From: an uncultured Gammaproteobacteria bacterium
GTDB taxonomy: Bacteria; Patescibacteriota; Patescibacteriia; UBA9934
DNA: 24,603 nucleotides
Assembly (NCBI GenBank): GCA_964599455.1
Contig: CAZREA010000011.1
Location: 1-24,603, forward strand
Reading direction: 5' to 3'
In this document: positions 2,463 through 21,688 of the stretch, piece after piece
Position numbering within the stretch: the stretch's first letter is position 1
How the letters are laid out: every line of letters starts with the position of its first letter
The notes under the pieces: generated by a model
Databases searched by the model: none
Told to the model about the DNA's origin: nothing
Seen by the model: only the letters and a program-made list of their open reading frames with translations
Translations under genes and position numbers: made by a program

Positions 2463-2693
2463 ATGTATATGTATTATGTGTATATTCTTCAAAGCCATGC
2501 AAATCATACTTATTGCTATAGCTATACTCACAAGCATATCCAAGCTCATCTCCTGGAGCATAATGAAGGAAGTTCTCATTATACGAGTAAATATCGTCCC
2601 TGGAAACTCGTTTGGTATGCAGGATTTGCTACAGAAGAGCGAGCGTGTGAGTTTGAGAAATATTTAAAATCAGGTTCTGGGCATGCATTTTAG
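2463..2693 (+). CDS. GIY-YIG nuclease-family small protein (UPF0213-like), degenerate motifs
   Basis: 76 aa: YYVYILQS...LLEHNEG...YTSKYRPWKLVWYAGF...EERACEFEKYLKSGSGHAF. The layout matches stand-alone GIY-YIG mini-proteins. However, the YIG element reads YCYSY and the conserved Arg before EHN is missing. Confidence 0.65.
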   Translation: MYMYYVYILQSHANHTYCYSYTHKHIQAHLLEHNEGSSHYTSKYRPWKLVWYAGFATEERACEFEKYLKSGSGHAF

Positions 2694-2765
2694 AGAAAAA
2701 GATTTCTCTAAAATAATAATGTTTCACGTGAACCTATATTGAGATAAAATTGAAAGGTTTTAAAC

Positions 2766-2996
2766 TGTGGATAACATGTTGATAACTTTTTATAGGAAAT
2801 GTTTCACATGGAATATATATGAATTAGTATTTAATATTAGCCAAATATAAAGATACATTGAAAATATAAGAAAATATGAATCTGTGGATAAGTTGTGTAT
2901 ATATCTGTGGAAAAACTGTGAAGAATATAATGTCAAAGATAGCGTTGACAAATGTATGCACAAGTTATCCACCGACTTTTCCTCAGCTTATCCACA
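2766..2996. promoter_or_regulatory. DnaA-box cluster with an AT-rich core (oriC-like or DnaA-regulated promoter)
   Basis: Perfect TTATCCACA 9-mers: TGTGGATAA at 2766-2774, TGTGGATAA at 2883-2891, and TTATCCACA at 2988-2996. One-mismatch boxes: TGTTGATAA 2777-2785, TGTGGAAAA 2906-2914, and TTATCCACC 2965-2973. A roughly 70-nt, very AT-rich stretch lies between them (2810-2880). The left boxes are inverted relative to the right boxes. Confidence 0.6.
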
Positions 2997-3014
2997 ATCC
3001 TTTATACTCTCCTT

Positions 3015-3956
3015 ATGAGCATCGATTGGCATCGCTGTTTAGGTGTTTTTGTGATTCTCGGAGTTCTGCTGAGCGCTTTTGCTATTGGTCGGCCTTTATT
3101 CGCAGCGATGAGTTCGACAAGTTATCGCATCCAATGGGATGCGGTTACCACGGGCGGGAGTGATACCTCATCTTCATCGAGTTACTCATTGCGTGATCAA
3201 TTGAGTTCCGGTGCTGATACGAGCGGCTCCCTCTCGTCTACTTCCTATACCCTCGATCCTGGCTATCGAGGTGGCGTGTATGATCCGGTGGTCGGTTTTC
3301 GCATGTACACCCAAGATCGCTCAAGCCAAGTTGCAGCTACGGCAAGTACGTCTACAACGGTTACGGTAACGACGACATCACCTTTTTCTATTGGAACATA
3401 CATTGCCACTGTGCAAAATGAAGGCGCGTCACAAATGACGGCTTTTGGAAAAATTACGAGTATCGACGGTACGGTGCTAACCGTTGACGCATTTATCGGC
3501 GATTCGGTGGCTATCGACGGATCAAATGACTACGCATACGCTTTTACGCCTGACGGCACGTCTTTACCGTTAAATACCCTGTCCTCTTCGTCGGTCGTCA
3601 CTGGTCTTATTGCCTGGGAGGTTACTGCTGATGTGGCGAATGGATATGATGTTTATTTGTATGAAGACCATGATTTACAAACGGCGAGCGCACAATCAAT
3701 CACCGATGTTGTGGATGGAGCGGTAACGATAGGTGTTACCGAATATGGCGCGCGTTCATCGGACACGTCACTCTCTTCAACAACATTTGATACGCAAGAT
3801 ACAGCGATTACTTCAACTCCTCAGATCGTTGCATCACGTGCCTCCGCTCTTTTTGCTGCGCGTGATTTTGTGACGCTGAAGGTTGCGATGGCCGAAGGTC
3901 AGCCGGATGGATCGTATGGTCAAACGCTCAATGTTTTGTTTGCAGGAAACTATTAG
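3015..3956 (+). CDS. Secreted Ser/Thr-rich protein of unknown function (operon gene 1)
   Basis: The ORF track gives 2952..3956. The upstream part overlaps the DnaA boxes, so I started the CDS at ATG 3015 (MSIDWHRCLGVFVILGVLLSAFAIGRPLFAA, signal/TM-like). It carries three S-x-SY-x-L/I motifs (STSYRI, SSSYSL, STSYTL) and is beta-rich. The C terminus is ...GQPDGSYGQTLNVLFAGNY. No family recognised. Confidence 0.7.
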   Translation: MSIDWHRCLGVFVILGVLLSAFAIGRPLFAAMSSTSYRIQWDAVTTGGSDTSSSSSYSLRDQLSSGADTSGSLSSTSYTLDPGYRGGVYDPVVGFRMYTQDRSSQVAATASTSTTVTVTTTSPFSIGTYIATVQNEGASQMTAFGKITSIDGTVLTVDAFIGDSVAIDGSNDYAYAFTPDGTSLPLNTLSSSSVVTGLIAWEVTADVANGYDVYLYEDHDLQTASAQSITDVVDGAVTIGVTEYGARSSDTSLSSTTFDTQDTAITSTPQIVASRASALFAARDFVTLKVAMAEGQPDGSYGQTLNVLFAGNY

Positions 3957-3957
3957 T

Positions 3958-4836
3958 ATGCAGTTTTTTGCTCGAGTTTTTATCTTGCCGCTGCTTTTCT
4001 TCGGAGTGTTCACGTGGAGTCAATCAGCATTTGCTTTTACGATCGAACCTTCGGCGGCTGATGTGGTGTTGGTCGATCAAACTCCGGCAACGCACACGGT
4101 GTTTGTGCGTAATACCGACAAGGAAACGGCATCGTATGCAGTTTTGCTGCAAAATCTTTCTTTTGGAGAAAGGGGAGAGATTGCAAATATGGAGGTCATG
4201 GATGCATCGTGGATTGAGGTGACACCTTCCGCATTTATTTTACAGCCAGGGCAGGAACAGGAAGTGGTCATCAGTTTTTCTCCGCCATCGTATCTTCAGC
4301 CTATAGCTTTCCCCTTGGGAGTGATTGTTGAAGAACAGGGCGAAGAGGGGCGTTCAAACGTGCTCTCATCAGTATTATCTTATCTCTTTTTTTCTTATCA
4401 AGGAGAAAAACTGTCTCCCGCAGCAACGTTAACGGATTTTCAAATTCGTTTTATTGAACATACATGGATTGCCGCCGTCGCTGTGCAAAATAGCGGCGAA
4501 AAAACGATTACGCCGGCGGGTATCGTGACGTTGCGTGATATGTTTGGTCGTGAACTTGAAACATATGCGTTTAATGCTCAAGGGAATCGCGTTCCTCCGG
4601 GAGTTATTCGTACGATCGCGAGTCCATTAGCGATTAACCTGACTAGCCCGTGGTTTATTGGTGGCAAGATTACGGCTTCGGTTCAACTTTTGTATGCTAC
4701 GTCTACCGCGCCGCTTGTCGGCACCGTATCGTGGTATACATTTCCTGGCTGGGCTACGATGGTGTGTTTGGGAATCGGCTTGCTGGGCTTGATTGTTTTG
4801 TTCGTCATCTACAAAAAAAGATATCGTCGTCAGTGA
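3958..4836 (+). CDS. Signal-peptide protein with Ig/PapD-like repeats and a C-terminal TM anchor (operon gene 2)
   Basis: ATG at 3958 lies 1 nt after the gene 1 stop and in frame with track ORF 3883..4836. The signal peptide is MQFFARVFILPLLFFGVFTWSQSAFA. The pattern FTIEPSAADVVLVDQTPATHTVFVRNTDKETASYAV...VTPSAFILQPGQEQEVVISFSPP is typical of chaperone/DUF916-type beta-sandwiches. The C-terminal anchor is WATMVCLGIGLLGLIVLFVIYKKRYRRQ. Confidence 0.75.
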   Translation: MQFFARVFILPLLFFGVFTWSQSAFAFTIEPSAADVVLVDQTPATHTVFVRNTDKETASYAVLLQNLSFGERGEIANMEVMDASWIEVTPSAFILQPGQEQEVVISFSPPSYLQPIAFPLGVIVEEQGEEGRSNVLSSVLSYLFFSYQGEKLSPAATLTDFQIRFIEHTWIAAVAVQNSGEKTITPAGIVTLRDMFGRELETYAFNAQGNRVPPGVIRTIASPLAINLTSPWFIGGKITASVQLLYATSTAPLVGTVSWYTFPGWATMVCLGIGLLGLIVLFVIYKKRYRRQ

Positions 4837-4866
4837 GGTAAAAAGGAGAGGTTTTCGAGGTATACT

Positions 4867-7485
4867 GTGGGTGTGTTTATACGAAGGTTTTTTCAAACAT
4901 TTTTTTTGGTCATTTTTGCGGCTGTTAGTACAGGTTTGCCGATATTTTTTGCATATGCCGATACGCTGTCATCGGTCGAAGCGCAGCCGTCGTCGCTTGT
5001 TGTAAGTCAGGGTGCAAATCAAAAATTTCTTTTTACGACAGTTTCGGCCTGGACCGATGGCGAAACGCTTACCATCACGTTTCCGAGCGGATATACAACG
5101 ACGTCCATTACCGAAGATGATGTTGATATTGCTGATGATGGTGTTGATAAAACAACGGCCGCTACATGTACAGGAACCGAAGAGATGTCGGTGGCGATGG
5201 CGGCAAATGTTTTAACGTTAACGGTGTGTAGTGGTGATGGTGGTTCGGTTGGTGCAGGTTCGGCGGTGGTGATTGAAGTTGGTCGCAATGCGTCATCCTC
5301 CGGCAACGGCACGCAACAAATAACAAATCCCTCGAATCAAAGTTCTTATTTTATCGATATCGGCGGCACGTTCGGCGATGGCGGCTCGGTTATTGTTCCT
5401 ATCGTCGCTACTGATTCGTCGGGTGTTTCAACGACAGTGCCTTCATCAAGTTCGGGCGGAAGTGGCGGCGGCGGTGGAGGTGGCGGAACCGTTGGTGGAG
5501 GAGATGATAGTGATAGTGGTGATGAGGTTGATGAGGGAACGGATGAACCCGATCCGGGAACTGATGAAGGTACGGATGAAACGGATCCTACAGATCCGGG
5601 AATTGATGAGGAAACGCCGGGGGAAGATGGGACTCCAGAAGGAGATCCAGGATCAACGGATACGGGTTCGGACACGAGTGGTGATGCATCCGGAGATAGT
5701 TCATCGTCAGGTGAAGATTCGTCGAGCGGTGACGACGCTTCCTCGGGCACAGACTCAGAAGGCGGAGAGGATACGAGTGGCGGAGCCGGATCTCTTTCGG
5801 AGCAAGAGATTGATCTTGGTATTTATGCGTATGATTTGCCGTTGGCGGTTACTGATGATGGCGTGAGCGTGTTGCCGGGAACAACGGCGACCGTTGTTGT
5901 TTTTTTACCTAAAGAAGAGGATGCAGAAAAGATGGTTTTAGAAATCGGTCCGCGCTCATATGCTTTTGTAGAAGTGCCAGATGGCTCGTGGTCGATTGAT
6001 GTCGTGTTGCCGCAAGCTAATATTCCCGGTGTTATTCGCGTGACCGATACCGATGGCTCTACGCGTAGCGCACGAATATTGTTTGATGTGATTGGCGAAG
6101 GTGGCGTTTATGAAATTCTTGAAGGTTCAACGCAGGGTATTGAAGGTGCTGAGGTGACAGTTCTTTCGTCTAATGGTTTGATTTGGGATGGTGCAGCTTA
6201 TGAACAATCCCCAATTCTGCTAACTAATAATCAGGGAAATGGTATTGCGTGGTATGTACCGAATGGAATGTATCAAGTTCGAGTGACGAAACAGGGATAC
6301 GAAGAAACGACTGTTTTTGTTACGGTAACAAATACTATTCTCGCTCCGACGATTTTTCTCGAACGTACAGACGAAGTCGTGGTGCCGCCGGAAGAAGGTG
6401 AGCAGACGGGCACGGGAGAACTATCAGTAACAGACTCACCTGGCATCAGCGAACTCAAACAAGAAACGTTTTTCGAAAGTCTTCTTCCTGATTTTCTTTC
6501 TGAACTCCCTGTGCTTCCAGAAACATTCCTCCCTTTTCTCTCCGAGGAAGATGCACAGACTGTTCAGGATGTAGCCGTGCCGGCCGTGGCGGTTGCAACC
6601 GTAGCAGTGACAGCAGCTTCGGGAGCAACAAATCTAGGCTTGTTGTTGTATTCCTTTTTCACACAACCACTGCTTTTTCTCTCCCGTCGTCGGAATCGTC
6701 AGGTGAGCATTGCCTATAATAGTGCAACTAAGATGCCCCTTGATCTTGTTACTATTCGTGTTTTTGCATCCGAAACCGGACGATTAGTGAAGACATTGGT
6801 CACTAATGAAAAGGGAGAATTCTTTCTTTCACTTAATAAAATTGGGAAATATCGTCTTGAAGCGATGAAAACAGGATTTGTGTTTCCGAGCGAGCATTTT
6901 AAAGAGGTGAGAGAAGATGGAAAATATCAGGATGTCTATGCAGGACAGGAAATAGAAATAGGTGAAGGATCGCCGTTGATCGCGATATCCATGCCGCTTG
7001 ATCCTGAAGGGGTTGATATACCTATGAAGCAATTGCAGTGGCAGCGTTTCAAACGACGTTTTGCGACGGCACTTTCTCCGATGAGCGTACTAGTGGCGTT
7101 TATTGCCTTTTTGGCAACACCAGTTTTTTTTACGGGAATGCTCTTTTTTGCGCAGATTCTTTTTTGGGCAATCGCATGGCGCTTGACGCATAAAAAACGT
7201 CCAATGTCATGGGGTATTGTCTATGACGCACAAACGCGTAAGCCTGTGGGCAATACGGTCATCCGACTCTTTGAACCGCAGTATAATAAGCTGGTCGAAT
7301 CAACGTTGTCTGATGCGCAGGGACGATATGCATTTTTATTAGGACCCAATGCGTATTTTGCTACTTATCGCAAAGATGGCTACGTCGAGGCGACGGTTCG
7401 ACCTATCGACTATCGTGCAAAAACAGAACCGCAAATTTTCGGAGTTGCGGTTCCGTTAGGACGCGATCAACAGAAACATGGATAA
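4867..7485 (+). CDS. Large multi-TM surface protein with an acidic linker and CarboxypepD_reg-like domains (operon gene 3)
   Basis: 872-aa ORF with a GTG start at 4867. AAGGAGAGG lies at 4843-4851, so the exact start is uncertain. It has an N-terminal signal/TM followed by a beta domain. About 115 aa form a G/S/D/E/T low-complexity region. Three segments match the carboxypeptidase-regulatory-like fold pattern: GAEVTVLSSNG...NNQGNGIAWYVPNGMYQVRVTKQGYEE, VTIRVFASETGRLV...NEKGEFFLSLNKIGKYRLEAMKTGF, and NTVIRLFEP...DAQGRYAFLLGPNAYFATYRKDGY. Several hydrophobic helices lie between them. Confidence 0.8.
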   Translation: MGVFIRRFFQTFFLVIFAAVSTGLPIFFAYADTLSSVEAQPSSLVVSQGANQKFLFTTVSAWTDGETLTITFPSGYTTTSITEDDVDIADDGVDKTTAATCTGTEEMSVAMAANVLTLTVCSGDGGSVGAGSAVVIEVGRNASSSGNGTQQITNPSNQSSYFIDIGGTFGDGGSVIVPIVATDSSGVSTTVPSSSSGGSGGGGGGGGTVGGGDDSDSGDEVDEGTDEPDPGTDEGTDETDPTDPGIDEETPGEDGTPEGDPGSTDTGSDTSGDASGDSSSSGEDSSSGDDASSGTDSEGGEDTSGGAGSLSEQEIDLGIYAYDLPLAVTDDGVSVLPGTTATVVVFLPKEEDAEKMVLEIGPRSYAFVEVPDGSWSIDVVLPQANIPGVIRVTDTDGSTRSARILFDVIGEGGVYEILEGSTQGIEGAEVTVLSSNGLIWDGAAYEQSPILLTNNQGNGIAWYVPNGMYQVRVTKQGYEETTVFVTVTNTILAPTIFLERTDEVVVPPEEGEQTGTGELSVTDSPGISELKQETFFESLLPDFLSELPVLPETFLPFLSEEDAQTVQDVAVPAVAVATVAVTAASGATNLGLLLYSFFTQPLLFLSRRRNRQVSIAYNSATKMPLDLVTIRVFASETGRLVKTLVTNEKGEFFLSLNKIGKYRLEAMKTGFVFPSEHFKEVREDGKYQDVYAGQEIEIGEGSPLIAISMPLDPEGVDIPMKQLQWQRFKRRFATALSPMSVLVAFIAFLATPVFFTGMLFFAQILFWAIAWRLTHKKRPMSWGIVYDAQTRKPVGNTVIRLFEPQYNKLVESTLSDAQGRYAFLLGPNAYFATYRKDGYVEATVRPIDYRAKTEPQIFGVAVPLGRDQQKHG
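5449..5797 (+). repeat. Low-complexity acidic Gly/Ser/Asp/Glu/Thr linker (coding, inside gene 3)
   Basis: Translation reads SSSGGSGGGGGGGGTVGGGDDSDSGDEVDEGTDEPDPGTDEGTDETDP...SSGEDSSSGDDASSGTDSEGGEDTSGG. This region also produces the spurious antisense ORF 5346..5750. Confidence 0.8.
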
Positions 7486-10400
7486 AGGCGCAAACATGCG
7501 GGGTCTTTTTTCGTTGACGATGACAATCGTCAGTTCTTTTGTTATTTTTTTCGCTTCTTTTCTTACGTTCTCCCCTCTTCTTGCTCGTGCGGCATCGGCA
7601 CCAAATATTTTGATGTATCAAGGAAGACTTTTAAATGCAAGTCGCGTTCCGGTGTCATCTGCGTCGGTAAGCATGATTTTTGAACTATATACGGCGTCGT
7701 CCGGTGGAACATGCGTGTGGTCAAATTCTTCAGCTACGTGTGCGTCGGCAACGGCGCGCACAGTTACGTTAACTGACGGGCTTTTTAGCGAGGCATTGGG
7801 GGATACCGGTTCGTCATATGCTGCAATCTCTGACAGTATTTTTGCCGACAATGCCACGGTCTATCTCCAAATAACGATTGCTGGTGAAACCCTTTCTCCC
7901 CGTAAACAGATTCTCTCAGCTCCATACGCCTTAAATTCCGATACACTTGATGGCCTCGATGTCGATAATGATGGTGCTACGGCAGCAGCTGTGGTTGCGT
8001 ATAATTCTTCGGGAAATCTCGTCGTTACAGGTAATCCGTCCGGATCCGGCGTATCAAATGGATCGCTTTATATCAATCCCGGAAGTTCGGATACGGCGGC
8101 AAATGATACGATTTTTGGTGTTGCCGATGGTGGCACAGAGCTTTTCCGTATTGATAAAGAAGGTGATGTATCGCTTGCGACAACAAGTGGGTTTACATGT
8201 ACGGATTGTATTGATTGGTCGGATTTTTCTGACAGCGCCACACTTGATGCGGCAACAACGGTAACGCTTGGTTCGAGTAACTTTACTTTTTCCGTGGCGA
8301 GTTCCGGTTCGTATCTCATGACCAATTCTGCCGGAACATTTCTCACTATCGCTTCCACAGGGGCGTACACGTACACGCTCGATGCCACGAATAACCCCGC
8401 GTTTACCATTACCAACGCGGGCTCATCGAACATCATGAACAATCTTAGTGGTACTGGTGATTTTGTTCTGCAGGATAATGGTACGGAATTTCTTACGATT
8501 ACCGATGCTGGCGCATATCTTTTTGTGCAAGATTCCATTGATAACCCTCTTTATACTGTTCGTAATGACGGAACAAGCGATACCTATTTTGAATCGACCT
8601 CTTCCGGGGATATTGAAATGCGACTAACGGGTACCGGAGATTTTATTGTCAAAGATAACGGCTCTGCCTTTTTCACGCTGAGCGATGGAGGCGGATTTGA
8701 TCTTGCACTCGATGCCACCGATAATCCTGCCTATACCGTTACGAATGCTGGTTCTGCTGATGTTACTTACAATTTGAGCGGTACGGGTGATTTTTTGGTG
8801 CAAGACAACGGCTCGGCATTCTTTACGCTATCTGACGCAGGCGCGATCAGCTTTACGCTTGATGCAACGGACAATCCGGCCTTCACACTCACCAACGCGG
8901 GTTCATCGAACATTATTAACAATCTTAGTGGTACCGGTGATTTTGTTTTGCAAGATGCGGGTTCGACGTTTTTTACTTTTTCAGATACCGGAGGATTTGA
9001 TCTCACCCTTGATGGAACGGATAACCCTGCTTTTACGGTAACAAATGCCGGATCTTCTGACATCACCTATAATTTAAGTGGCACAGGCGATTTTTATCTC
9101 AAAGATAATGGTACAGAATTTTTGACTATTACTGATACAGGCGCATACCTCTTCGTTCAAGATTCGACGGATAACCCTCTTTATACTGTTCGTAATGACG
9201 GAACAAGCGATACCTATTTTGAATCGGCATCTTCGGGAGATATCGAAATGCGACTAACGGGTACCGGAGATTTTATTGTAAAAGATGGAACTACGGCGTT
9301 TTTTACGTTTGCTGATGACAGCGCGGTTACTTTTGATGCAGTTGCAACAACAGGAACAGCTTTTGCTTTAAGTACAGGTACTCTTACGACAGGAAAGGGA
9401 ATGAAGATCTCTCGTAATAGCGGTGGAGCCGATTTTGACGGTGTACTTTTTGAAGTAGAGCAAAATAATACAAGCGTTACCTCGGATGGATCAGCAATTC
9501 GTATTTCACAAAGTGGAGCAGGAAATGCAAGTGCTTTACAGATTGTACAAAATACCGTTGCCAACGCCACTACATCAATAACGTCACAAGCGGTTGCAAT
9601 TGATGTGAATGAAATACAAAATAATGATGAAGTGATTCTTATTCGTTCAGATGCCGATGGCACACCTGATGCGGAATTTCGTTTTGAAAATGATGGTGAT
9701 GCGTTTGCTGATGGGGCTTGGAATGGTACAGGTGCTGACTACGCGGAATATTTTCCTACAACCGATACCGGATTGTCGGACTATATGCTTGTTTGTCAGG
9801 ATCTGTCGCAATCGGAAAATGTGAAAACGTGTACAGCGGGAGAACAGCGTGTGATGGGTGTGATTTCTACGAATCCCGCGTTTATCGGAAATAATCAGGG
9901 AGCCGAGAAGAGTTTAGAAGACGATCGGCATTATCGATTAGTGGGTATGATGGGACAAATTGAAACGCTTGTCTCGACGGCAGATGGTGCCATTGCTATT
10001 GGTGATCCGTTGGCGGTTTCGTCTGTATACGATGGATATGCAGGAAAGGCATCAGGAAATACCTATATCATTGGTCGTGCACTTGAATCGTTAGCGTCAG
10101 GATCTGGAACGATTAAGGTACTTGTGCAGCCGATGTGGTATGGCGGAGATATACTGACGCTCGATGGTGATGTTTCGGTGCACGGAGCATCTATGACTTT
10201 GGCTTCGCTCGGAATGGCAACGATTGATGAGCAATCCTTTAACTCGGCTGGACTTACTTTTGCAGGATCAGCGTGGAATGGAATTACTGCAGAAGATCGA
10301 GCGATGACGCTCGTGAATGTAGTGTCTGATGTAGATGAATATGGATTGCGTTTGCGTGATACGAATGGAGAAGACCAATTCTCGTTCAGTAATACGGGTG

Positions 10401-11680
10401 ATTTTGCCTTATCGGGAAAATTGTATCCATCTGATAATGGCGTGATGCAGTATGGCGCATATCTCTATTACGACAGTATCGGTGCGGGGTATATGCGCAC
10501 AAATGCGGCCGGATGGGCATCGACGGCAGCAAACTACGCAACGCCATTTATTTCCTCTGATGCGCTGGTTACTGGTGAAATTGTAACCTTTAGTCAAACA
10601 AACGCAGGCGTTACCCGTTCGTCGGATGCGTATGATGATCGCATCGCCGGTGTGGTTTCGTCGGGAGCGGGATTTTTGGCAGGAACGCAAGTTGCGGGAT
10701 CCTACCCTATTATTTTGCTCGGCCGCGTATCGACACTGGTCAGTGCAGAAAATGGAGCGATTGTCGCAGGTGATCCACTTACCACATCTTCTCGTCCTGG
10801 CTATGCCATGAAGGCAACGCAAGCAGGACAAATTCTCGGCTATGCGCTGGAGGCATTTTCTGGTTCGGAAGGTTCGATCATGACGTTTGTTCGTCCAACA
10901 TTCTTTAATGGGGCATCATCGCAAGCGGGAGATACGCAAAATGGACTTTCGCAACTTGTTGATGTGGAGACATTGGATATTTCTGGTGCACTCAACATGA
11001 ATGGAGGCAGAATCTTGAGCGTGGGATCGATTTCCGGCATGAGCAATTGGGAGATCACGGAAAATGGCAATATCGTGACGCGTGGTCAGGTCACACAACT
11101 TGTTCGCTCGTTGCAAAACGAAGATGTTGCGACTTATGCCGTCACTGCTCCAGAAACGTACGTACAACTTTCCGGCACGTCCACATTGGAAAACGGTTTC
11201 GCGAGGATTCGTTTCGAGGATCTTGATCCTCAATTCAACGACATTATCGATCCCGCCTTGTCGTATCGTGTTTTTGTGACTCCTGCGGGCGTAACCGGAC
11301 AGCTCTATGTTACCGATCGTACGACTAATGGATTTATCGTGCATGACGCCGATGGTGGTTCAGGCGTGGCGGTTGATTGGCTCGTGATTGCGTATCGTCA
11401 CGACATTGCACCACTCACCGCACAAAATGGTGACATTAGCCCTGTTCCTGATGAAGACGATGAGATTTTAGAATCTGATCCAATTGAGGATGAAGAGGTG
11501 ATAATACCAGCGGAAGATGAAGAAGAGATTGGAGGTGAAGATGTATCTGACGTGATAGAATCTGTTGACGAAACGGTGACGTCAGAGACTGTATCAGATG
11601 ATGAAACGGATCAAGGCGATGACACGATTGTTGTTGATGACGTTTCATTGGGATCGGGTGATGCCGAAATTTCTTCGTAA
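7478..11680 (+). CDS. Giant (1400 aa) secreted repeat-containing fibre/adhesin-like protein (operon gene 4)
   Basis: ATG 7478 overlaps the gene 3 stop (ATGGATAA). An alternative start is ATG 7496 (MRGLFSLTMTIVSSFVIFFASF, signal-like). The N-terminal head is ILMYQGRLLNASRVPV...IFELYTASSGGTCVWS...LSPRKQILSAPYALNSDTLDG, a motif seen in many tail-fibre-like surface proteins. Six 50/60-aa tandem repeats follow. The C-terminal module is duplicated (...GVISTNPAFIGN...GMMGQIETLVSTADGAIAIGDPL... and ...GVVSSGAGFLAG...LLGRVSTLVSAENGAIVAGDPL...). The protein ends in a strongly acidic tail. Confidence 0.85.
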   Translation: MDKGANMRGLFSLTMTIVSSFVIFFASFLTFSPLLARAASAPNILMYQGRLLNASRVPVSSASVSMIFELYTASSGGTCVWSNSSATCASATARTVTLTDGLFSEALGDTGSSYAAISDSIFADNATVYLQITIAGETLSPRKQILSAPYALNSDTLDGLDVDNDGATAAAVVAYNSSGNLVVTGNPSGSGVSNGSLYINPGSSDTAANDTIFGVADGGTELFRIDKEGDVSLATTSGFTCTDCIDWSDFSDSATLDAATTVTLGSSNFTFSVASSGSYLMTNSAGTFLTIASTGAYTYTLDATNNPAFTITNAGSSNIMNNLSGTGDFVLQDNGTEFLTITDAGAYLFVQDSIDNPLYTVRNDGTSDTYFESTSSGDIEMRLTGTGDFIVKDNGSAFFTLSDGGGFDLALDATDNPAYTVTNAGSADVTYNLSGTGDFLVQDNGSAFFTLSDAGAISFTLDATDNPAFTLTNAGSSNIINNLSGTGDFVLQDAGSTFFTFSDTGGFDLTLDGTDNPAFTVTNAGSSDITYNLSGTGDFYLKDNGTEFLTITDTGAYLFVQDSTDNPLYTVRNDGTSDTYFESASSGDIEMRLTGTGDFIVKDGTTAFFTFADDSAVTFDAVATTGTAFALSTGTLTTGKGMKISRNSGGADFDGVLFEVEQNNTSVTSDGSAIRISQSGAGNASALQIVQNTVANATTSITSQAVAIDVNEIQNNDEVILIRSDADGTPDAEFRFENDGDAFADGAWNGTGADYAEYFPTTDTGLSDYMLVCQDLSQSENVKTCTAGEQRVMGVISTNPAFIGNNQGAEKSLEDDRHYRLVGMMGQIETLVSTADGAIAIGDPLAVSSVYDGYAGKASGNTYIIGRALESLASGSGTIKVLVQPMWYGGDILTLDGDVSVHGASMTLASLGMATIDEQSFNSAGLTFAGSAWNGITAEDRAMTLVNVVSDVDEYGLRLRDTNGEDQFSFSNTGDFALSGKLYPSDNGVMQYGAYLYYDSIGAGYMRTNAAGWASTAANYATPFISSDALVTGEIVTFSQTNAGVTRSSDAYDDRIAGVVSSGAGFLAGTQVAGSYPIILLGRVSTLVSAENGAIVAGDPLTTSSRPGYAMKATQAGQILGYALEAFSGSEGSIMTFVRPTFFNGASSQAGDTQNGLSQLVDVETLDISGALNMNGGRILSVGSISGMSNWEITENGNIVTRGQVTQLVRSLQNEDVATYAVTAPETYVQLSGTSTLENGFARIRFEDLDPQFNDIIDPALSYRVFVTPAGVTGQLYVTDRTTNGFIVHDADGGSGVAVDWLVIAYRHDIAPLTAQNGDISPVPDEDDEILESDPIEDEEVIIPAEDEEEIGGEDVSDVIESVDETVTSETVSDDETDQGDDTIVVDDVSLGSGDAEISS
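8327..9286 (+). repeat. Intragenic tandem repeat array: six units of 50, 60, 50, 50, 50 and 60 aa
   Basis: The unit consensus is NGSxFFTLSDxGxxxFTLDATDNPAFTVTNAGSSxIxxNLSGTGDFxLQD. The two 60-aa units (8477-8656 and 9107-9286) share exact 57-nt blocks (8540-8596 = 9170-9226) and exact 35-nt blocks. Confidence 0.9.
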
Positions 11681-11686
11681 TTTTTT

Positions 11687-14020
11687 ATGCGCCTTTCTTC
11701 CAACCGCCTATTTCTCAGACTCATGACCTGGCCCTTCTATCTCGTGGCGGTTTTGGTGCCAACCTTGATCGTTCCCTTTTTTGCTGATCCGCTCGAAATT
11801 CACAAGATGACCGTTTTTGTCGTACTGATCATGATCTCGGCTTTTGCCTGGTTATTTCAAGCCATGCGTCATCGACAAGTAACTGTTGTACGGACATGGA
11901 CATTTTTACCAGTCTGTCTTTTTTTTATTGCTACCTGCGTTTCAGCGTTGCTTTCTGTGGCGCCAGGAATGAGTTGGTTGGGGCTAGAAAAAACTGACGG
12001 AGCCAGTGTCGTCATGACGTTTGCGGGAATGTTATGTGTGCTCTTGATCCCGCATATTTATGCATTGTTTGGGAAGGTTTTTGTTCAGCGATTTTCATTC
12101 GCCACTCTGCTTGGCGGGGTATTGGTCGTGGTATTGATGCTGTTGTCGTGGTTTGGAATTCTTCCTTTGACATTAAGTGTTTCGTTGGGAGCGCCAAATG
12201 CGCTGGCATTTTATTTAGGAACTCTGGTGGTCATGTGGCTTGGTTCTCGTTTTTATGAGCAGGAAGGTGACAGAAAGATGATCTCTGTAGTCGGTTGGAT
12301 TCTTTATGTGGCTTTTCTCGGTGTTGCGTTTACGCTTGACGCTCCGGTTGTCTGGTTGGTGTTGGTGTTGTCTTTGGTTTGCATGCTGGCTGCGGTTTTT
12401 GTGCGACCGCCTGAAGGAGTTGGTGTTGAGAAAATTTTGCCACCTGTTCTTCTCATCGTTCTTGCGATATTTGCTTGGCTATTGCCGCCGTTGGTGCGCG
12501 GTGTTTTTCCGGCAGAAATCGTCCCTTCATTTTCGGCGAGTTGGTCAATGGTACAGTCGGTTTGGCACGGCATACCATTGTGGTTAGGAACCGGGCCGGG
12601 CACATATGCTATTTCCTATGCGCAGTCGTATCCGTTAGCCATGAACGCGACGCCATTTTGGAATGTGACTTTTCAATCGAGCTATGCCCATCTGCTCACC
12701 TTGGCTGTCACCCACGGTCTTTTTGGTCTCATCACCTTTTTGTTCTCGAGCTTTGTTGGGCTCGGCCTTTTTTTCCAGGCCTGGCTTCGTGCCTCGGCAA
12801 AAAATAAAAGCATACTCTTAGTCATTGGCTCTGGTTTCATTTTTCTTTTCTTTGCTTCATTCGTCTATTCATTTACGCTTTCTTTTGTTGCACTCTTTTT
12901 CCTCTTATTAGGCTTTGTCCATGCGCTGCGAGCACATCAAACAAAGGATTATGTGTTCGCTTCGTCTGCGCGCGCATCATTGCTTGCAACTGGAGGATTT
13001 GTGGTGGCGATGGTTGCGATGGTGACGGTGATGTTTGTGACCGTGGTGCGCTACACGGCGGAAATTTCCTATGCCCACGCGGTGTCATTACGGCGTGCGG
13101 AAGCATCAATTGATGAAGTAATTGTAGCGCTTGATAAAGCCGCCTCGCGTAATCAGTGGAATGATCGTTACTATCGTGAATTGAGCCTGGTGTTGTTAGA
13201 AAAAGTTGAACAATTGGTCCAACAGCAGGCTTCAAGTGAATCTGTACAATCCGTTTTGGCAGCGGCGGTAAATGCATCGGTCCGCGCAACGGACATTGGT
13301 CCGCAAAATGTGCAAAATTGGAAAGTACGCGGCAATGTGTATCGTGAGGTTGCTCCGGCTGTTGCCAATGCCGCTGATTTTTCCATTGGTTCTTTCCAGA
13401 CTGCACAACGATTGGCGCCAAATAATCCGGCGTATGCAGTTGGCTTGGCGCGTGCCTATCTCATGAAGGCGGACTTACTTCGTCAGCAAACAACAAGTGA
13501 CGACGCTGCGGTTGCCAAACAGGCACAAACGTTGCGTGACGAAGCACTTGCCAGTGCCGAAAAAGCGTTGCAACAGGCACTGACATTAAAAAAAGACTAT
13601 ACGGTTGCCCAGTATTTTTTAAGCATGGTGTATGAACGTCAGGGCAAACTGGGTGATGCGGTCAAAAGCATGGAAGCCGTGAAAGTTGCCAATATGCAAG
13701 ATGTGGGCGTCGGCATGCAATTATCCCTCCTTTATCTGCGTCAAGGAAAAAATGATCTCGCCAAAGCGGAGTTACAACGCATCGTTGCCTTGTCGCCTAC
13801 CTTTTCTAACGCCCATTGGTATCTTTCGGTAATTTATGAAGAAGAAGGGAAGACCGATGAGGCAATAAAAGAAGTAGAGGCGGTTTTGCAACAAAACCCT
13901 GAAAATCAAACCGTGAAACAGCGTCTTGAGCGTTTGCAAAGCGGTGTCACCTCCGATGATGCCGCCACAACCGTGCCACCGATTGAGGACGATTTCAAGG
14001 ATGTAGAGACGGGTCGCTGA
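11687..14020 (+). CDS. O-antigen-ligase-like (Wzy_C) polytopic membrane protein with C-terminal TPR repeats (operon gene 5)
   Basis: 777 aa, with roughly 12 TM helices. Wzy_C-like signatures are IPLWLGTGPGTYAISY and SSYAHLLTLAVTHGLFGLITFLF. The C-terminal ~300 aa have TPR-like periodicity (AQYFLSMVYERQGKLGDAVKSMEAV; LSLLYLRQGKNDLAKAELQRIVALSP; AHWYLSVIYEEEGKTDEAIKEVEAVLQQNPEN). The start lies 6 nt after the gene 4 stop. Confidence 0.75.
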   Translation: MRLSSNRLFLRLMTWPFYLVAVLVPTLIVPFFADPLEIHKMTVFVVLIMISAFAWLFQAMRHRQVTVVRTWTFLPVCLFFIATCVSALLSVAPGMSWLGLEKTDGASVVMTFAGMLCVLLIPHIYALFGKVFVQRFSFATLLGGVLVVVLMLLSWFGILPLTLSVSLGAPNALAFYLGTLVVMWLGSRFYEQEGDRKMISVVGWILYVAFLGVAFTLDAPVVWLVLVLSLVCMLAAVFVRPPEGVGVEKILPPVLLIVLAIFAWLLPPLVRGVFPAEIVPSFSASWSMVQSVWHGIPLWLGTGPGTYAISYAQSYPLAMNATPFWNVTFQSSYAHLLTLAVTHGLFGLITFLFSSFVGLGLFFQAWLRASAKNKSILLVIGSGFIFLFFASFVYSFTLSFVALFFLLLGFVHALRAHQTKDYVFASSARASLLATGGFVVAMVAMVTVMFVTVVRYTAEISYAHAVSLRRAEASIDEVIVALDKAASRNQWNDRYYRELSLVLLEKVEQLVQQQASSESVQSVLAAAVNASVRATDIGPQNVQNWKVRGNVYREVAPAVANAADFSIGSFQTAQRLAPNNPAYAVGLARAYLMKADLLRQQTTSDDAAVAKQAQTLRDEALASAEKALQQALTLKKDYTVAQYFLSMVYERQGKLGDAVKSMEAVKVANMQDVGVGMQLSLLYLRQGKNDLAKAELQRIVALSPTFSNAHWYLSVIYEEEGKTDEAIKEVEAVLQQNPENQTVKQRLERLQSGVTSDDAATTVPPIEDDFKDVETGR

Positions 14021-14032
14021 CCCGTCTTTTTG
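14008..14032 (+). terminator. Rho-independent terminator of the surface operon
   Basis: GACGGGTC-GCT-GACCCGTC followed by TTTTT. The hairpin overlaps the gene 5 stop codon. Confidence 0.75.
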
Positions 14033-14039
14033 TTCATCT

Positions 14040-14650
14040 CTAAACCCCCAGCGTAGCTGGGGTGTACGTTTGTAGGCAACGCATATACTAAAAGCCGCCT
14101 GGCAGGGCGGCTTTTAGTGTTGCATTGTCCTATGTATCACAAACGTACCATCCGTACCTTATCACATTGTTACTATGACCTAAAATATCATCTCGTATGG
14201 ACACCGAAGTATCGAGGAAAGGTATTAGGATCAGACAAGATCACACAGGAGCTTATTCGAATCTTTGAGAGTATCTGCAAGTGGAAACATTGGGAGATCA
14301 TCGAACTCAATATCCAAGAGGATCATATCCACATGTGTTTGCTTGCCACTCCTCGTGACTCAATCTCCTATGTCATGCAAAACCTCAAAGGCAAATCATC
14401 TGCATGGCTCAAGAAAAAGATCAAACGTACCCATGGACTCTACGAACGGCACTCCCTTTGGGCACGAGGCTACTTTGTCTCAACAATAGGAATCGATGAG
14501 TTCATCATCCGTCGCTACGTCAGACACCAACATCACCACAATGAGATCGACCAACCCTCTTTGTTTGAAAAACTCTTAACCTAACACCAGAGCGCCCTGC
14601 CAGCGCAGCTGGCAAACACAAAGCCACCGGACCTCAGTCCGGTGGTCTGG
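14040..14650 (+). mobile_element. IS200/IS605-family insertion sequence (tnpA only); boundaries approximate
   Basis: A Y1 transposase ORF is flanked by subterminal hairpins. On the left: CCCCAGC-GTA-GCTGGGG (14046-14062) and AAAAGCCGCC-TGGCAG-GGCGGCTTTT (14090-14115). On the right: TGCCAGC-GCA-GCTGGCA (14598-14614) and CCACCGGAC-CTCA-GTCCGGTGG (14624-14645). The left CTGGCAGGGCG is the reverse complement of the right CGCCCTGCCAG. No tnpB is present. Confidence 0.75.
14132..14584 (+). CDS. tnpA: IS200/IS605-family Y1 (HUH) transposase TnpA
   Basis: YDLKYHLVWTPKYRGKVL, the HUH motif EDHIHMCLLATP, KGKSSAWL, and the catalytic-Tyr region LWARGYFVSTIG. The layout is collinear with Salmonella IS200 TnpA. 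The start is ATG 14132 (MYHKRT) or 14117. Confidence 0.85.
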   Translation: MYHKRTIRTLSHCYYDLKYHLVWTPKYRGKVLGSDKITQELIRIFESICKWKHWEIIELNIQEDHIHMCLLATPRDSISYVMQNLKGKSSAWLKKKIKRTHGLYERHSLWARGYFVSTIGIDEFIIRRYVRHQHHHNEIDQPSLFEKLLT

Positions 14651-17436: not shown

Positions 17437-17529
17437 ATGGACGCTAGTGTACATGAAGTGGATATCTTCTCCTACTACCCCCTTTCAGAGGGTAATATTC
17501 TCCTTATTGTATCGGTTCGATGTCGACTT

Positions 17530-20046: not shown

Positions 20047-20078
20047 GTTCAATAATGTGTTACGCGCACCATGTATAT

Positions 20079-21124: not shown

Positions 21125-21688
21125 ATGTCTCCAAATGATATTCGCAAAGGTACGGTTATCAATTACGAAAACGATCTCTGGGTCGTTGTCAGTTTCCAGC
21201 GCGTGTCTCCTGGTAAAGGCAGTTCCTTTGTTCGCACAAAAATAAAATCACTTTCTAGCGGCAAGGTTGTAGAAAATAATTTTAAATCTTCCGAATCGCT
21301 TACGTTTGAACAGGTCGGTTTTAAAAAGATGCAATTTATTTTCGGTGACGAAAACACCCTCACCTTCATGGACGGCCAAACCTACGAGCAGGTAGCTATT
21401 GGTCGAGATACGATTGGAGATGACGCGAAATATTTGAAGGAAGGTCTTGATGTAACGGTGATTATGCACGGTGATCGCGCTATTTCGATGGAACTTCCGC
21501 TTAAGATCGAATATGTTGTTGCTGAAACTGAACCAGCGGTCAAAGGTGATACGGCTTCAGGTAACGTGTTGAAAGATGCCAAGATGGACAACGGTTTAAT
21601 GGTTCGTGTGCCGATTTTCATTAAAGAAGGCGATACGCTCATGATCTCGACCGAATCTGGTGATTACGTGGAACGCGTGAGTCGCTAG
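21125..21688 (+). CDS. efp: Translation elongation factor P
   Basis: 187 aa: NDIRKGTVINYENDLWVVVSFQRVSPGKGSSFVRTKIKSLSSGKVVE... The modifiable Lys sits in the PGKG loop, and the protein has typical EF-P length. Confidence 0.95.
   Translation: MSPNDIRKGTVINYENDLWVVVSFQRVSPGKGSSFVRTKIKSLSSGKVVENNFKSSESLTFEQVGFKKMQFIFGDENTLTFMDGQTYEQVAIGRDTIGDDAKYLKEGLDVTVIMHGDRAISMELPLKIEYVVAETEPAVKGDTASGNVLKDAKMDNGLMVRVPIFIKEGDTLMISTESGDYVERVSR

What the first reader, a model, noticed from the sequence alone, without database searches (positions are those of the whole stretch)
3015..14020. Eleven-kb, five-gene envelope operon with no recognisable pilin, sortase or secretion-machine component
Five same-strand genes are packed with gaps of 1, 30, -8 and 6 nt and end at a strong terminator. 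Every product carries a signal peptide or TM segments. In order they are: (1) a Ser/Thr-rich secreted protein with three SxSYxL motifs; (2) a signal-peptide protein with Ig/PapD-like sequence pattern and a C-terminal TM plus KKRYRR anchor; (3) an 872-aa multi-TM protein with an acidic disordered linker and three CarboxypepD_reg-like beta-sandwiches; (4) a 1400-aa tandem-repeat fibre-like protein; (5) a Wzy_C-TPR membrane protein. The pairing of genes 1 and 2 recalls Firmicute WxL-locus logic, in which a secreted beta-rich protein accompanies a DUF916/DUF3324-type anchored protein. I could find no WxL, LPxTG, type IV pilin or usher signatures. This looks like a self-contained surface-appendage or adhesin assembly module that is not an obvious member of a described system.
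Basis: partly seen in the sequence, partly recalled or inferred. Interest (0 to 1): 0.72.

Follow-up and report, generated by a model that had tools for sequence, protein, structure and literature searches.

The report
Fibre-display surface operon of ultrasmall bacteria
This is a strictly conserved five-gene operon of Uhrbacteria-type ultrasmall (CPR) bacteria that most likely builds and anchors a long adhesive fibre on the cell surface, using a distant relative of the WxL-interacting protein of lactic acid bacteria, so it offers a testable candidate for how these symbionts attach to other cells.

Summary
The five co-directional genes, their spacing and the terminator are real. The order g1-g2-g3-g4 holds in every one of the 75 species-level genomes whose contig reaches far enough, mostly Ca. 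Uhrbacteria/Patescibacteria.

- **g2** is a remote but clear homologue of the Firmicute WxL-interacting protein (DUF916/DUF3324 plus a TM helix). hhalign gives probability 99% over the full length. The AF2 model has pLDDT 95, and its best PDB match is E. faecium WxLIP, followed by PapD/CsuC/FimC pilus chaperones.
- **g1** is the best-conserved protein and belongs to no known family. It has a beta-sandwich core that weakly resembles chaperone-usher pilins, an inserted ~90-aa domain, and a conserved N-terminal arm of three SxSYx[LI] strands that AF2 cannot place.
- **g3** is a membrane stalk protein.
- **g4** is a tail-fibre-like adhesin with a Bdellovibrio MAT-type N-terminal domain and two Peptidase_G2-like modules.
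- **g5** is a roughly 11-TM protein with TPR repeats. The Wzy_C call for it is not supported.

No WxL domain, LPxTG motif, usher or type IV pilin signal is present. The best reading is a WxL/Csc-like, non-covalent surface-display module for an adhesive fibre, and a new variant of a known kind. Who binds whom is inferred, not shown. A donor-strand pilus remains possible.

The parts
2720..3014 (+). AT-rich upstream region carrying six DnaA-box-like TTATCCACA sites (three perfect, at 2766, 2883 and 2988). It is the probable promoter and regulatory region of the operon.
   Evidence: 16 matches in the window against 6 expected, 6 of them within 2766-2996; perfect boxes occur at 1.49 per kb upstream of g1 in 67 orthologous loci against 0.008 per kb elsewhere. 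In many loci the box is followed by a GCTAAnnTTAGC palindrome and a TTGAC-N17-TATAAT-like promoter. Any regulatory role is inferred.
3015..3956 (+). g1: a 313-aa secreted protein and the best-conserved member of the module. It has a signal peptide (aa 1-31), an N-terminal arm with three SxSYx[LI] strand motifs (aa 32-90, nt 3108-3284), an inserted ~90-aa beta domain (aa 91-179, nt 3285-3551) and a ~135-aa beta-sandwich core ending in ...FAGNY (aa 180-313, nt 3552-3953).
   Evidence: at least 239 clusters, 45-60% identity, no Pfam hit; in the AF2 model residues 90-313 have pLDDT above 90 and residues 30-86 below 50; weak Foldseek matches to the CfaB, CsuA/B and FimA pilins; short forms lack the insert.
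3958..4836 (+). g2: a 292-aa homologue of the WxL-interacting protein (WxLIP, DUF916/DUF3324). It has a signal peptide (aa 1-26), two PapD-like Ig domains (aa 27-262), a C-terminal TM helix and a KKRYRRQ tail (aa 263-292).
   Evidence: pLDDT 95.2; 9i1y WxLIP at 1.7e-10, then CsuC, CfaA, PapD, Caf1M and FimC.
4867..7485 (+). g3: an 872-aa membrane stalk protein. It has a signal peptide, a conserved Cys-containing N-terminal ectodomain (aa 31-190), an acidic Gly/Asp/Glu/Ser linker (aa 191-310), an Ig/CarboxypepD_reg domain (to about aa 500), TM1 (aa 566-606), a second CarboxypepD_reg domain (aa 610-712), a TM hairpin (aa 738-778) and a third CarboxypepD_reg domain (aa 783-860).
   Evidence: The N-domain matches no Pfam or PDB family. 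By the positive-inside rule the last two beta-sandwiches would be cytoplasmic; this is an inference.
7478..11680 (+). g4: a 1400-aa tail-fibre-like adhesin. It has a signal peptide, a MAT_N-like N-terminal domain (aa 36-165, nt 7583-7972), six 50-60-aa repeats (aa 294-625, nt 8357-9352), a Peptidase_G2-like module 1 with DYAE at aa 754, a module 2 with degenerate NYAT at aa 1019, a C-terminal beta domain (about aa 1180-1335) and an acidic tail (aa 1336-1400).
   Evidence: PF11962 scores 28 bits against a cut-off of 25; both modules are detected. Bdello_MAT_N is hit by 22 of 22 orthologues, best E 7.5e-11, but below the curated cut-off..
11687..14020 (+). g5: a 777-aa polytopic membrane protein with about 11 TM segments (aa 1-460) and a C-terminal TPR domain (about aa 470-760). 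Its enzymatic or scaffold role is unknown.
   Evidence: It is linked to the module in two different gene orders.
14005..14029 (+). Intrinsic-terminator-like hairpin that closes the operon.
   Evidence: 11-pair stem with 6 GC pairs, followed by a T-run.

Best explanation
The operon encodes a surface-display and anchoring module for a long adhesive fibre in a Patescibacteria (Ca. Uhrbacteria-type) cell.

All five products are exported or inserted through Sec.
- g4 is the working part. It is a tail-fibre-like, probably trimeric adhesin with a conserved base (a MAT_N-like domain) and a variable shaft and distal region.
- g2 is a remote homologue of the Firmicute WxL-interacting protein. It sits in the cell's own membrane through its C-terminal helix. 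By analogy with WxLIP and with PapD-type chaperones, it holds a partner beta-sandwich by beta-strand complementation.
- g1 is that partner. It occupies the gene position of the small WxL protein, immediately upstream of g2 and translationally coupled to it. It has a small beta-sandwich core. Its strongly conserved, intrinsically unplaced N-terminal arm of three amphipathic strands is proposed to lock onto the equally conserved N-terminal domains of g4 and/or g3.
- g3 is a membrane-embedded stalk whose acidic linker could carry its N-domain across the wall.
- g5 is an accessory membrane/TPR factor, for assembly or modification.

Shown here: the homologies, the predicted folds, the topology signals and the conserved, reshuffled-but-linked gene neighbourhood.

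Inferred: which protein binds which, trimerisation and self-cleavage of g4, and the biological role in attachment to a host or partner cell.
For: 1. g2 is a WxLIP homologue. PF06030 is hit by 20 of 61 family members. The PDB profile hit to EfmWxLIP1 has E 1e-7. hhalign against 7 canonical WxLIPs gives probability 99.3-99.7 over both Ig domains and the TM helix, with negative controls. The AF2 model has pLDDT 95, and its top Foldseek hit is WxLIP 9i1y, with 9i25 (WxLIP bound to long WxL) at rank 9.
2. Canonical WxL loci run small WxL, then WxLIP, then large WxL. The window runs small g1, then g2, then (g3), then large g4.
3. The published WxLIP mechanism is completion of the partner's beta-sandwich by a WxLIP strand (PMC10599100).
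4. The order g1-g2-g3-g4 is invariant across the 75 loci and the window wherever the contig allows, and g5 follows g4 in the 16 complete loci.
5. In more distant metagenomic loci the same families stay linked in another order, g5-g1-g2-g3-g4. One contig carries a topologically consistent g2-g3 fusion. Some loci carry 2-3 g1-core paralogues with one g2, mirroring the '2 WxL + 1 WxLIP' rule.
6. Conservation pattern. g1 has a median 48% identity over its full length. The conserved parts of g3 and g4 include their N-terminal domains, while the shaft and linkers vary. g2 has only 26% identity.
7. The g1 arm contains invariant residues yet has pLDDT below 50 in the monomer model. This is expected for a segment that folds on a partner.
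8. All 22 tested g4 orthologues hit Bdello_MAT_N, and g4 hits Peptidase_G2. The MAT N-domain is thought to bind an unidentified cell-surface element (PMC10769870).
Against: - No protein-protein interaction was tested, because no multimer prediction was available.
- g1 shows no significant similarity to the WxL domain. hhalign gives probability 0.8-2.5%, and Pfam and PDB profile searches are negative.
- The g1 fold matches to pilins are weak: no PDB hit has E<=1e-3, and the TM-score relative to the pilin is about 0.45-0.5.
- The conserved WxLIP motif NQIDKxxxYFDLK is a gap in the g2 family alignment.
- g2 evolves much faster than its proposed client g1, which is unusual for a dedicated chaperone.
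- The Bdello_MAT_N hits lie below the curated cut-off (36 against 60 bits).
- Adhesion is inferred only from family resemblance and from the lifestyle of cultivated Patescibacteria.
- g5 has no assignable activity.
- The g2-g3 fusion rests on one short contig.
Confidence: 0.55

Rival explanations
1. A chaperone-usher-like donor-strand pilus of a bacterium without an outer membrane. g1 is a major pilin that polymerises by inserting one of its N-terminal strands into the next subunit. g2 is the membrane-tethered PapD-like chaperone that caps g1 before assembly. g3 is the membrane assembly platform and base. g4 is the tip fibre.
For: - The g2 model matches CsuC, CfaA, PapD, Caf1M, FimC and SafB at E 1e-9 to 1e-7, probability 1.0.
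- The best structured matches of the g1 core are the cognate pilins CfaB, CsuA/B, FimA and the PapG pilin domain, with probability up to 0.99.
- g1 has an N-terminal extension with alternating hydrophobic residues that AF2 leaves unplaced.
- g1 is the most conserved protein, as expected for a homopolymer subunit.
- The extreme C-terminus of g1 (G-x-Y-COOH) is conserved.
- Some loci carry several g1-core paralogues, like major and minor pilins.
Against: - No usher-like beta-barrel exists. g3 has only about 3 TM helices after its signal peptide.
- Pfam PapD_N/PapD_C did not appear among the g2 family hits, whereas WxLIP_PGBD did.
- The g1 matches are statistically weak.
- Three strand motifs are more than donor-strand exchange needs.
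- No filament evidence exists.
Confidence: 0.2
2. A general envelope-architecture complex rather than an adhesin. It could be a tether between the membrane and the wall or S-layer, or an S-layer-associated scaffold. In this reading g4 is a structural surface fibre with no partner-cell recognition role.
For: - The operon sits at a fixed housekeeping position, between RmuC and YchF, in most loci.
- It occurs once per locus examined and is strictly conserved.
- The upstream DnaA-box-like motif hints at cell-cycle-linked expression.
Against: - The shaft and distal regions of g4 and g3, and all of g2, diverge rapidly while the bases stay conserved. This is the pattern of exposed recognition proteins.
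- The g4 relatives that have been characterised are adhesins or receptor-binding fibres (PMC10769870).
Confidence: 0.15
3. A domesticated or remnant phage tail-fibre cassette, or a fortuitous adjacency of unrelated envelope genes.
For: - g4 carries phage-type modules: Peptidase_G2 and a possible Phage_cement_2 domain.
- The g1 insert resembles tailspike and tail-tube decoration domains.
- An IS200 transposase lies just downstream.
Against: - PHROGs gave no hit for g1-g4.
- There are no integrase, capsid or terminase genes.
- The flanks are housekeeping genes.
- The same chromosomal position and gene order recur in the 75 loci, one per species, wherever the contig is long enough to show them.
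- The IS is absent from the orthologous loci examined.
Confidence: 0.03

Closest known systems
WxL / Csc cell-surface-complex loci of Lactobacillales and Bacillales (small WxL + WxLIP [DUF916-DUF3324-TM] + large WxL, often with a small LPxTG protein)
   Same: - g2 is a full-length remote homologue of WxLIP, with the same architecture: signal peptide, two Ig domains, a TM helix and a basic tail.
- The gene order is the same: a small secreted protein, then WxLIP, then a large multi-domain surface protein.
- Distant variants carry 2-3 g1-core proteins per g2.
- The g1 core has co-linear counterparts of the three WxL landmarks: an L-x-F/L-G strand, G-Y-x-L for G-W-x-L, and a C-terminal Y-x3-[LV]-T-[LF]-x-[LF]-x3-[PFY] with the spacing of Y-x3-L-T-W-x-L-x3-P.
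   Different: - No WxL domain is detectable by Pfam or by profile-profile comparison.
- The tryptophans are replaced.
- The conserved WxLIP NQIDKxxxYFDLK motif is missing.
- g2 is about 50-70 residues shorter than canonical WxLIPs.
- There is no LPxTG protein.
- There are extra obligatory partners: the g3 stalk, a g4 that lacks any WxL-like C-terminal domain, and g5.
- The host phylum is Patescibacteria, whereas WxL is reported as over 91% Firmicutes (PMC9772566).
Chaperone-usher pili (PapD/FimC/CsuC/CfaA chaperones with FimA/CsuA/B/CfaB pilins)
   Same: - The g2 fold matches the two-domain chaperones nearly as well as it matches WxLIP.
- The g1 core weakly matches their pilins and has an N-terminal strand-bearing extension.
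   Different: - There is no usher and no outer membrane.
- The 'chaperone' is membrane-anchored.
- There are no PapD_N/PapD_C profile hits.
- The pilin similarity is not statistically significant.
Bdellovibrio MAT (mosaic adhesive trimer) fibres and phage tail fibres with self-cleaving chaperone modules
   Same: - The g4 N-terminal domain hits NCBIfam Bdello_MAT_N in 22 of 22 orthologues.
- g4 has a long repeat shaft.
- g4 carries Peptidase_G2 (IMC autoproteolytic) modules.
- It shows the same pattern of a conserved base with variable distal parts.
   Different: - The hits are below the curated cut-off and cover only profile positions 8-80 of 162.
- The modules are G2-type and internal, present in two copies with the second degenerate in this protein. 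They are not a terminal S74 domain.
- The host is not a diderm predator.
- The gene is embedded in a fixed operon with candidate anchoring proteins, which has not been described for MAT genes (PMC10769870).

Membership tests
WxL gene cluster (Hassan et al. 2023 definition) | At least one WxLIP protein (DUF916/PGBD + DUF3324/HBD + C-terminal TM helix) | tested here: met
   g2: hhalign probability 99.3-99.7 over the full length against 7 canonical WxLIPs; PF06030 hit by 20 of 61 family members; PDB EfmWxLIP1 at 1e-7; top Foldseek hit 9i1y. The window protein alone stays below Pfam thresholds.
WxL gene cluster (Hassan et al. 2023 definition) | At least two adjacent proteins with a WxL domain (dual Trp-x-Leu motif, PF13731) | tested here: not met
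   No WxL hit for any product. hhalign of the g1, g3 and g4 families against 11 WxL domains gives probability at or below 2.5%. Only one W-x-[LIV] occurs in g1.
WxL gene cluster (Hassan et al. 2023 definition) | Conserved PGBD motif NQIDKxxxYFDLK near the WxLIP N-terminus | tested here: not met
   This segment is an insertion in the WxLIP profile opposite a gap in the g2 family (alignment).
WxL gene cluster (Hassan et al. 2023 definition) | Small LPxTG protein in the cluster (frequent, not essential) | tested here: not met
   No LPxTG-like motif in any of the five products.
Chaperone-usher pilus system | Two-domain PapD-like chaperone | tested here: inconclusive
   The fold match is strong: CsuC, CfaA, PapD, FimC and others at E 1e-9 to 1e-7. 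The sequence profiles point to WxLIP, not to PapD_N/PapD_C.
Chaperone-usher pilus system | Outer-membrane usher beta-barrel | tested here: not met
   No usher family appears in the Pfam or NCBIfam scans. g3 has helical TM segments only.
Chaperone-usher pilus system | Pilin with an incomplete Ig fold and an N-terminal donor strand | tested here: inconclusive
   The g1 core matches CfaB, CsuA/B and FimA weakly (E 0.015-0.15, TM-score relative to the pilin 0.45-0.5). The N-terminal arm is unplaced by AF2. Groove occupancy could not be inspected.
MAT / tail-fibre adhesins | MAT N-terminal domain | tested here: inconclusive
   NF053851 is hit by 22 of 22 orthologues, best E 7.5e-11. The window protein scores 35.9 bits against a cut-off of 60, with partial profile coverage.
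MAT / tail-fibre adhesins | Self-cleaving intramolecular chaperone module (S74 or G2 type) | tested here: met
   PF11962 Peptidase_G2 scores 28 bits against a cut-off of 25. Two modules are present. The family-conserved D-[YF]-A-E motif is present at aa 754 and degenerate at aa 1019. Cleavage itself was not tested.
MAT / tail-fibre adhesins | Trimeric intertwined shaft | not testable with these tools
   No multimer prediction was available, and g4 exceeds the length limit for a single model.
O-antigen ligase / Wzy_C family (for g5) | Wzy_C domain (PF04932) or the NCBIfam O-antigen ligase models | tested here: not met
   No hit for the window protein or for the 17-18 orthologues tested, even at E<=10. 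PDB profile searches were negative. Only a G-x-G-x-G-x-F-type motif resemblance remains, recalled from memory.
Sortase-dependent or type IV pili | LPxTG sorting signal with a sortase, or a class III (prepilin) signal peptide | tested here: not met
   Regex search and Pfam scans.

The most novel reading that the evidence does not exclude
The module is a chaperone-assisted, donor-strand-exchange pilus that works on a single membrane. The WxLIP/PapD-like g2 is tethered to the cytoplasmic membrane and caps the pilin-like g1. g1 subunits then polymerise through their N-terminal strands on the g3 platform, with the MAT-like g4 trimer as the tip. This would make WxL/WxLIP loci of Firmicutes and this CPR system members of one ancient, usher-less branch of the chaperone-usher principle. 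It would also identify the long-sought anchor for MAT-type fibres.
Probability: 0.2. Interest if true: 0.85.

Novelty: new variant of a known kind. Interest (0 to 1): 0.66.

Why it matters
Patescibacteria/CPR make up a large share of bacterial diversity, and the cultivated ones live attached to other cells. Apart from type IV pili, the molecules that mediate attachment are largely unknown. This operon is a conserved, compact and previously undescribed candidate for that role in Uhrbacteria-type lineages.

It matters for three further reasons:
- It extends the WxLIP (DUF916/DUF3324) family beyond the Bacilli, where WxL loci are reported to be concentrated (over 91% of WxL sequences in Firmicutes, PMC9772566), and pairs it with a partner domain that has no family assignment.
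- The g2-g3 fusion and the positive-inside signals argue that the WxLIP-type TM helix sits in the bacterium's own membrane. This bears on a published proposal that it inserts into host membranes.
- It places a MAT/tail-fibre-type adhesin in a fixed operon with candidate anchoring proteins. That makes the open question of what holds such fibres on the cell directly testable.

Tried and rejected
- **g2 word-index search.** The search with g2 alone found only g2 itself. The exhaustive HMMER search was needed to find the family.
- **The search for related loci with the g2 alignment.** It failed because no stretch was conserved enough. The g1 alignment was used instead.
- **g1 as a WxL domain.** Rejected at the level of detectable homology. 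Pfam per-member scans, PDB profile searches and hhalign in local and global modes with reversed-sequence controls were all non-significant. A co-linear motif correspondence remains as a lead only.
- **g1 as TasA/camelysin, Ena or a sortase pilin.** No Pfam hits and no such Foldseek hits in the top 50.
- **WxL-like or g1-like domains in g3 or g4.** Not found.
- **g5 as Wzy_C.** Rejected.
- **g3 N-domain and g4 N-domain against the PDB.** Nothing.
- **Whole g4 against the PDB by sequence.** Nothing.
- **PHROGs.** Nothing relevant.
- **Viral fold library for g1.** Only 80-120-residue partial matches of the inserted domain to tailspike N-terminal domains.
- **Tandem Repeats Finder on g4 DNA.** No arrays. 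The repeats are visible only at the protein level.
- **Literature.** No paper in the library links WxL/DUF916 with Patescibacteria, chaperone-usher systems with this module, or WxL with donor strands beyond a 2013 review.

Full report
**Observation.** The window carries five tightly packed + strand genes: g1 3015-3956, g2 3958-4836, g3 4867-7485, g4 7478-11680 and g5 11687-14020. The gaps are 1, 30, -8 and 6 nt. The array ends at an 11-bp G+C-rich hairpin with a T-run at 14005-14029. The flanks are housekeeping genes: RmuC, a NUDIX protein, two tRNAs, YchF, S6, SSB and EF-P. This is chromosomal DNA, not a prophage. All five products have an N-terminal hydrophobic segment or TM helices. The exception is the Wzy_C label for g5. 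It found no support in Pfam, NCBIfam or PDB profile searches of the window protein or of 17-18 orthologues, even at E<=10.

**g2.** Alone, g2 gives only sub-threshold Ig-like hits of the PapD-like kind, such as Cep192 and HYDIN/VesB, and the word-indexed search found nothing. An exhaustive HMMER search found 508 representatives, almost all about 290 aa long and 20-30% identical. From a 61-sequence alignment, 20 members individually hit PF06030, WxLIP_PGBD (formerly DUF916). The family profile hits E. faecium WxLIP1 in the PDB at 1e-7. I fetched seven canonical WxL loci from Lactobacillales plasmids. hhalign of the g2 family against their WxLIPs gives probability 99.3-99.7, E 1e-20 to 1e-26, across both Ig domains and the TM helix. 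Cross-controls are negative. The AF2 model is excellent, with pLDDT 95.2. Its best PDB match is WxLIP entry 9i1y at 1.7e-10, followed closely by the chaperone-usher chaperones CsuC, CfaA, PapD, Caf1M, FimC and SafB; entry 9i25, WxLIP bound to long WxL, ranks ninth. g2 is therefore a shortened, divergent WxLIP. It lacks the NQIDKxxxYFDLK motif.

**g1.** The g1 family has at least 239 clusters at 90% identity, all about 300 aa. The few sources that name them call them Patescibacteria, apart from one evidently mislabelled record, and none has a Pfam assignment. Across 16 complete loci g1 is the most conserved of the five proteins. Median identities are 48% for g1, 26% for g2, 45% for g3 (only 38% of the length aligned), 45% for g4 (58% aligned) and 36% for g5. 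In the AF2 model, residues 90-313 have pLDDT above 90. Residues 30-86, which form the arm with the three strand motifs and contain many invariant residues, have pLDDT below 50. No PDB structure matches at E<=1e-3. The best structured matches to the core are chaperone-usher pilins: CfaB, CsuA/B, FimA and the PapG pilin domain, with probability up to 0.99 and a TM-score relative to the pilin of 0.45-0.5. An inserted ~90-residue domain resembles decoration domains of phage tail tubes and tailspikes. Short homologues of about 210 aa in more distant loci lack that insert. No significant similarity to the WxL domain was found. A global profile alignment does place three landmarks co-linearly, including a C-terminal Y-x3-[LV]-T-[LF]-x-[LF]-x3-[PFY] opposite Y-x3-L-T-W-x-L-x3-P. 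That alignment is not significant (P=0.12 against about 0.4 for reversed controls), so I treat it as a lead only.

**g3, g4 and g5.**
- *g3* has a signal peptide and a conserved Cys-containing N-domain with no known family. An acidic linker follows, then an Ig/CarboxypepD_reg region, and then a TM helix, a beta-sandwich, a TM hairpin and a final beta-sandwich. This C-terminal block is the most conserved part in distant lineages. By the positive-inside rule the last two sandwiches would be cytoplasmic; this is an inference.
- *g4* has more than 160 large homologues, named as Patescibacteria or Uhrbacteria wherever a source names them. Its N-terminal domain hits NCBIfam Bdello_MAT_N in 22 of 22 orthologues, best E 7.5e-11, though below the curated cut-off. 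Six 50-60-aa repeats follow. After them come two Peptidase_G2-like modules, with the family motif D-[YF]-A-E intact at aa 754 and degenerate at aa 1019. A C-terminal beta domain and an acidic tail complete the protein.
- *g5* has about 11 TM segments and a TPR domain. The odd TM count would place the TPR domain outside the cell; this is an inference.

**Synteny.** Neighbourhoods of g4 homologues show the same five genes next to RmuC. A scan of a collection holding one genome per species, using the g1 profile, returned 75 loci. Twenty-seven are titled Ca. Uhrbacteria and 16 Patescibacteria. The rest carry placeholder or evidently wrong labels. In every locus long enough, the order is g1-g2-g3-g4. 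g5 follows g4 in the 16 complete loci and in a further nine loci where it runs off the contig end. In one deeper Uhrbacteria lineage a g5-like gene lies about 9 kb downstream.

**Distant variants.** More distant relatives were found through g2 representatives and a metagenome scan, and they show informative variations:
- the order g5-g1-g2-g3-g4 in four loci;
- a single ORF fusing g2 to g3 with a consistent topology (out, TM, in, TM, out);
- loci with two or three g1-core paralogues and one g2;
- secreted proteins in which a g3-N-like domain is fused to a g1 core.

The families stay linked while their order and fusion state change. This is strong evidence for a functional unit. The 'several core-domain proteins plus one WxLIP' arrangement mirrors the published definition of a WxL cluster (PMC10599100).

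**Mechanism.** It is shown that g2 is a WxLIP homologue of the PapD-like fold, that g4 is a tail-fibre/MAT-type protein, and that the five families form a conserved unit. It is established for relatives that WxLIP is predicted to complete the beta-sandwich of its WxL partner with one of its own strands. A crystal structure of WxLIP bound to long WxL now exists as 9i25. MAT fibres sit on the cell surface through a conserved N-domain whose receptor is unknown. The rest is inference. g2, anchored in the cell's own membrane, holds the g1 core. The conserved arm of g1 engages the conserved N-domains of g4 and/or g3. g3 provides a stalk. g5 assists assembly or modification. The exposed, fast-evolving parts of g4 mediate attachment. 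I put this at 0.55. The main rival, at 0.2, is a true donor-strand pilus made of g1 with g2 as a tethered chaperone. A non-adhesive envelope scaffold gets 0.15, and a phage remnant or chance adjacency gets 0.03.

**Comparison and novelty.** The locus works like a WxL/Csc cluster and shares one homologous component with it. It fails the defining test of two WxL-domain proteins, lacks the WxLIP signature motif, adds three obligatory partners, and lives in a different phylum. It resembles chaperone-usher systems in fold only and has no usher. g4 resembles MAT fibres but is sub-threshold for that family. No paper in the searchable library connects WxL/DUF916 with Patescibacteria. I therefore class it as a new variant of a known kind. 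Two of its domain families, the g1 core with its arm and the g3 N-domain, have no Pfam, NCBIfam or PDB assignment.

**Side observations.**
- The 230 bp upstream of g1 hold six DnaA-box-like sites. Perfect TTATCCACA boxes are about 190-fold enriched upstream of g1 across 67 orthologous loci, usually at a fixed distance ahead of a palindrome and a sigma-70-like promoter.
- An IS200/IS605 TnpA gene has been inserted between the operon terminator and ychF. It is absent from the orthologous loci examined.

Noticed in passing
window 2766-2996; upstream of g1 in L017-L091: A cluster of six DnaA-box-like sites (three perfect TTATCCACA) lies directly upstream of g1. Perfect boxes occur at 1.49 per kb in the 680 bp around the g1 start in 67 orthologous loci, against 0.008 per kb in the rest of those loci. 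Most sit about 180-240 bp before the MSSTNY codon, ahead of a GCTAAnnTTAGC palindrome and a TTGAC-N17-TATAAT-like promoter. This could be DnaA-dependent regulation or the site of another factor. The GC skew shows no switch, so an origin of replication is unlikely.
   Followed up: partly
window 14117-14584 (+), hairpin 14624-14645 (-): An IS200/IS605-type TnpA gene (Y1_Tnp, E 4e-33) is inserted between the operon terminator and ychF. In the orthologous loci L002, L006, L008 and L009 no transposase is called between g5 and ychF, and in L002 and L006 ychF follows g5 directly.
   Followed up: partly
window about 2463-2693 (+): A small GIY-YIG domain ORF of 76 aa, called in L001, sits alone between tRNA-Ala and the operon's upstream region.
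   Followed up: no
window 10532-10543 (g4 aa 1019-1022): The second Peptidase_G2-like module of g4 has N-Y-A-T where the family consensus is D-F-A-E. The first module keeps D-Y-A-E at aa 754. The second module may be non-cleaving in this organism.
   Followed up: partly
L092:1311-4262: A single 983-aa ORF fuses a g2-like protein to a g3-like protein: the two Ig domains and TM helix of g2, a short basic loop, then the former signal peptide of g3 and the rest of g3. The topology is consistent with g2's helix sitting in the bacterium's own membrane. It rests on a single 4.3-kb contig, so an assembly or frameshift artefact cannot be excluded.
   Followed up: partly
L102:8621-9718, L103:8659-9750, L107:7446-8423, L108, L111, L112: These are secreted proteins of 320-365 aa in which a g3-N-like domain (or another N-terminal domain) is fused to a g1-type core, sometimes in 2-3 paralogous copies beside one g2. 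This parallels large WxL proteins, which combine variable N-terminal domains with a C-terminal WxL domain.
   Followed up: partly
L017, L019, L023, L026, L027, L036 and others (record titles): Twenty-seven of the 75 genomes carrying this module are titled 'uncultured Gammaproteobacteria bacterium', one 'Candidatus Kapaibacterium' and one 'Methylococcaceae'. All share the Uhrbacteria-type locus, and those checked share its flanks too. The public labels look like placeholders or binning errors.
   Followed up: no
window 20055-21122 and 21125-21688 (+): A truncated class II aminoacyl-tRNA-synthetase-like gene (355 aa, tRNA-synt_2) lies directly upstream of efp. This is the arrangement expected for an EpmA/PoxA-type EF-P modifying enzyme. 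The identification comes from general knowledge and was not tested here.
   Followed up: no
window 17431-18600 (+): A 389-aa ORF with a TTG start has no Pfam hit and overlaps the end of the divergent methyltransferase gene. It may not be a real gene.
   Followed up: no
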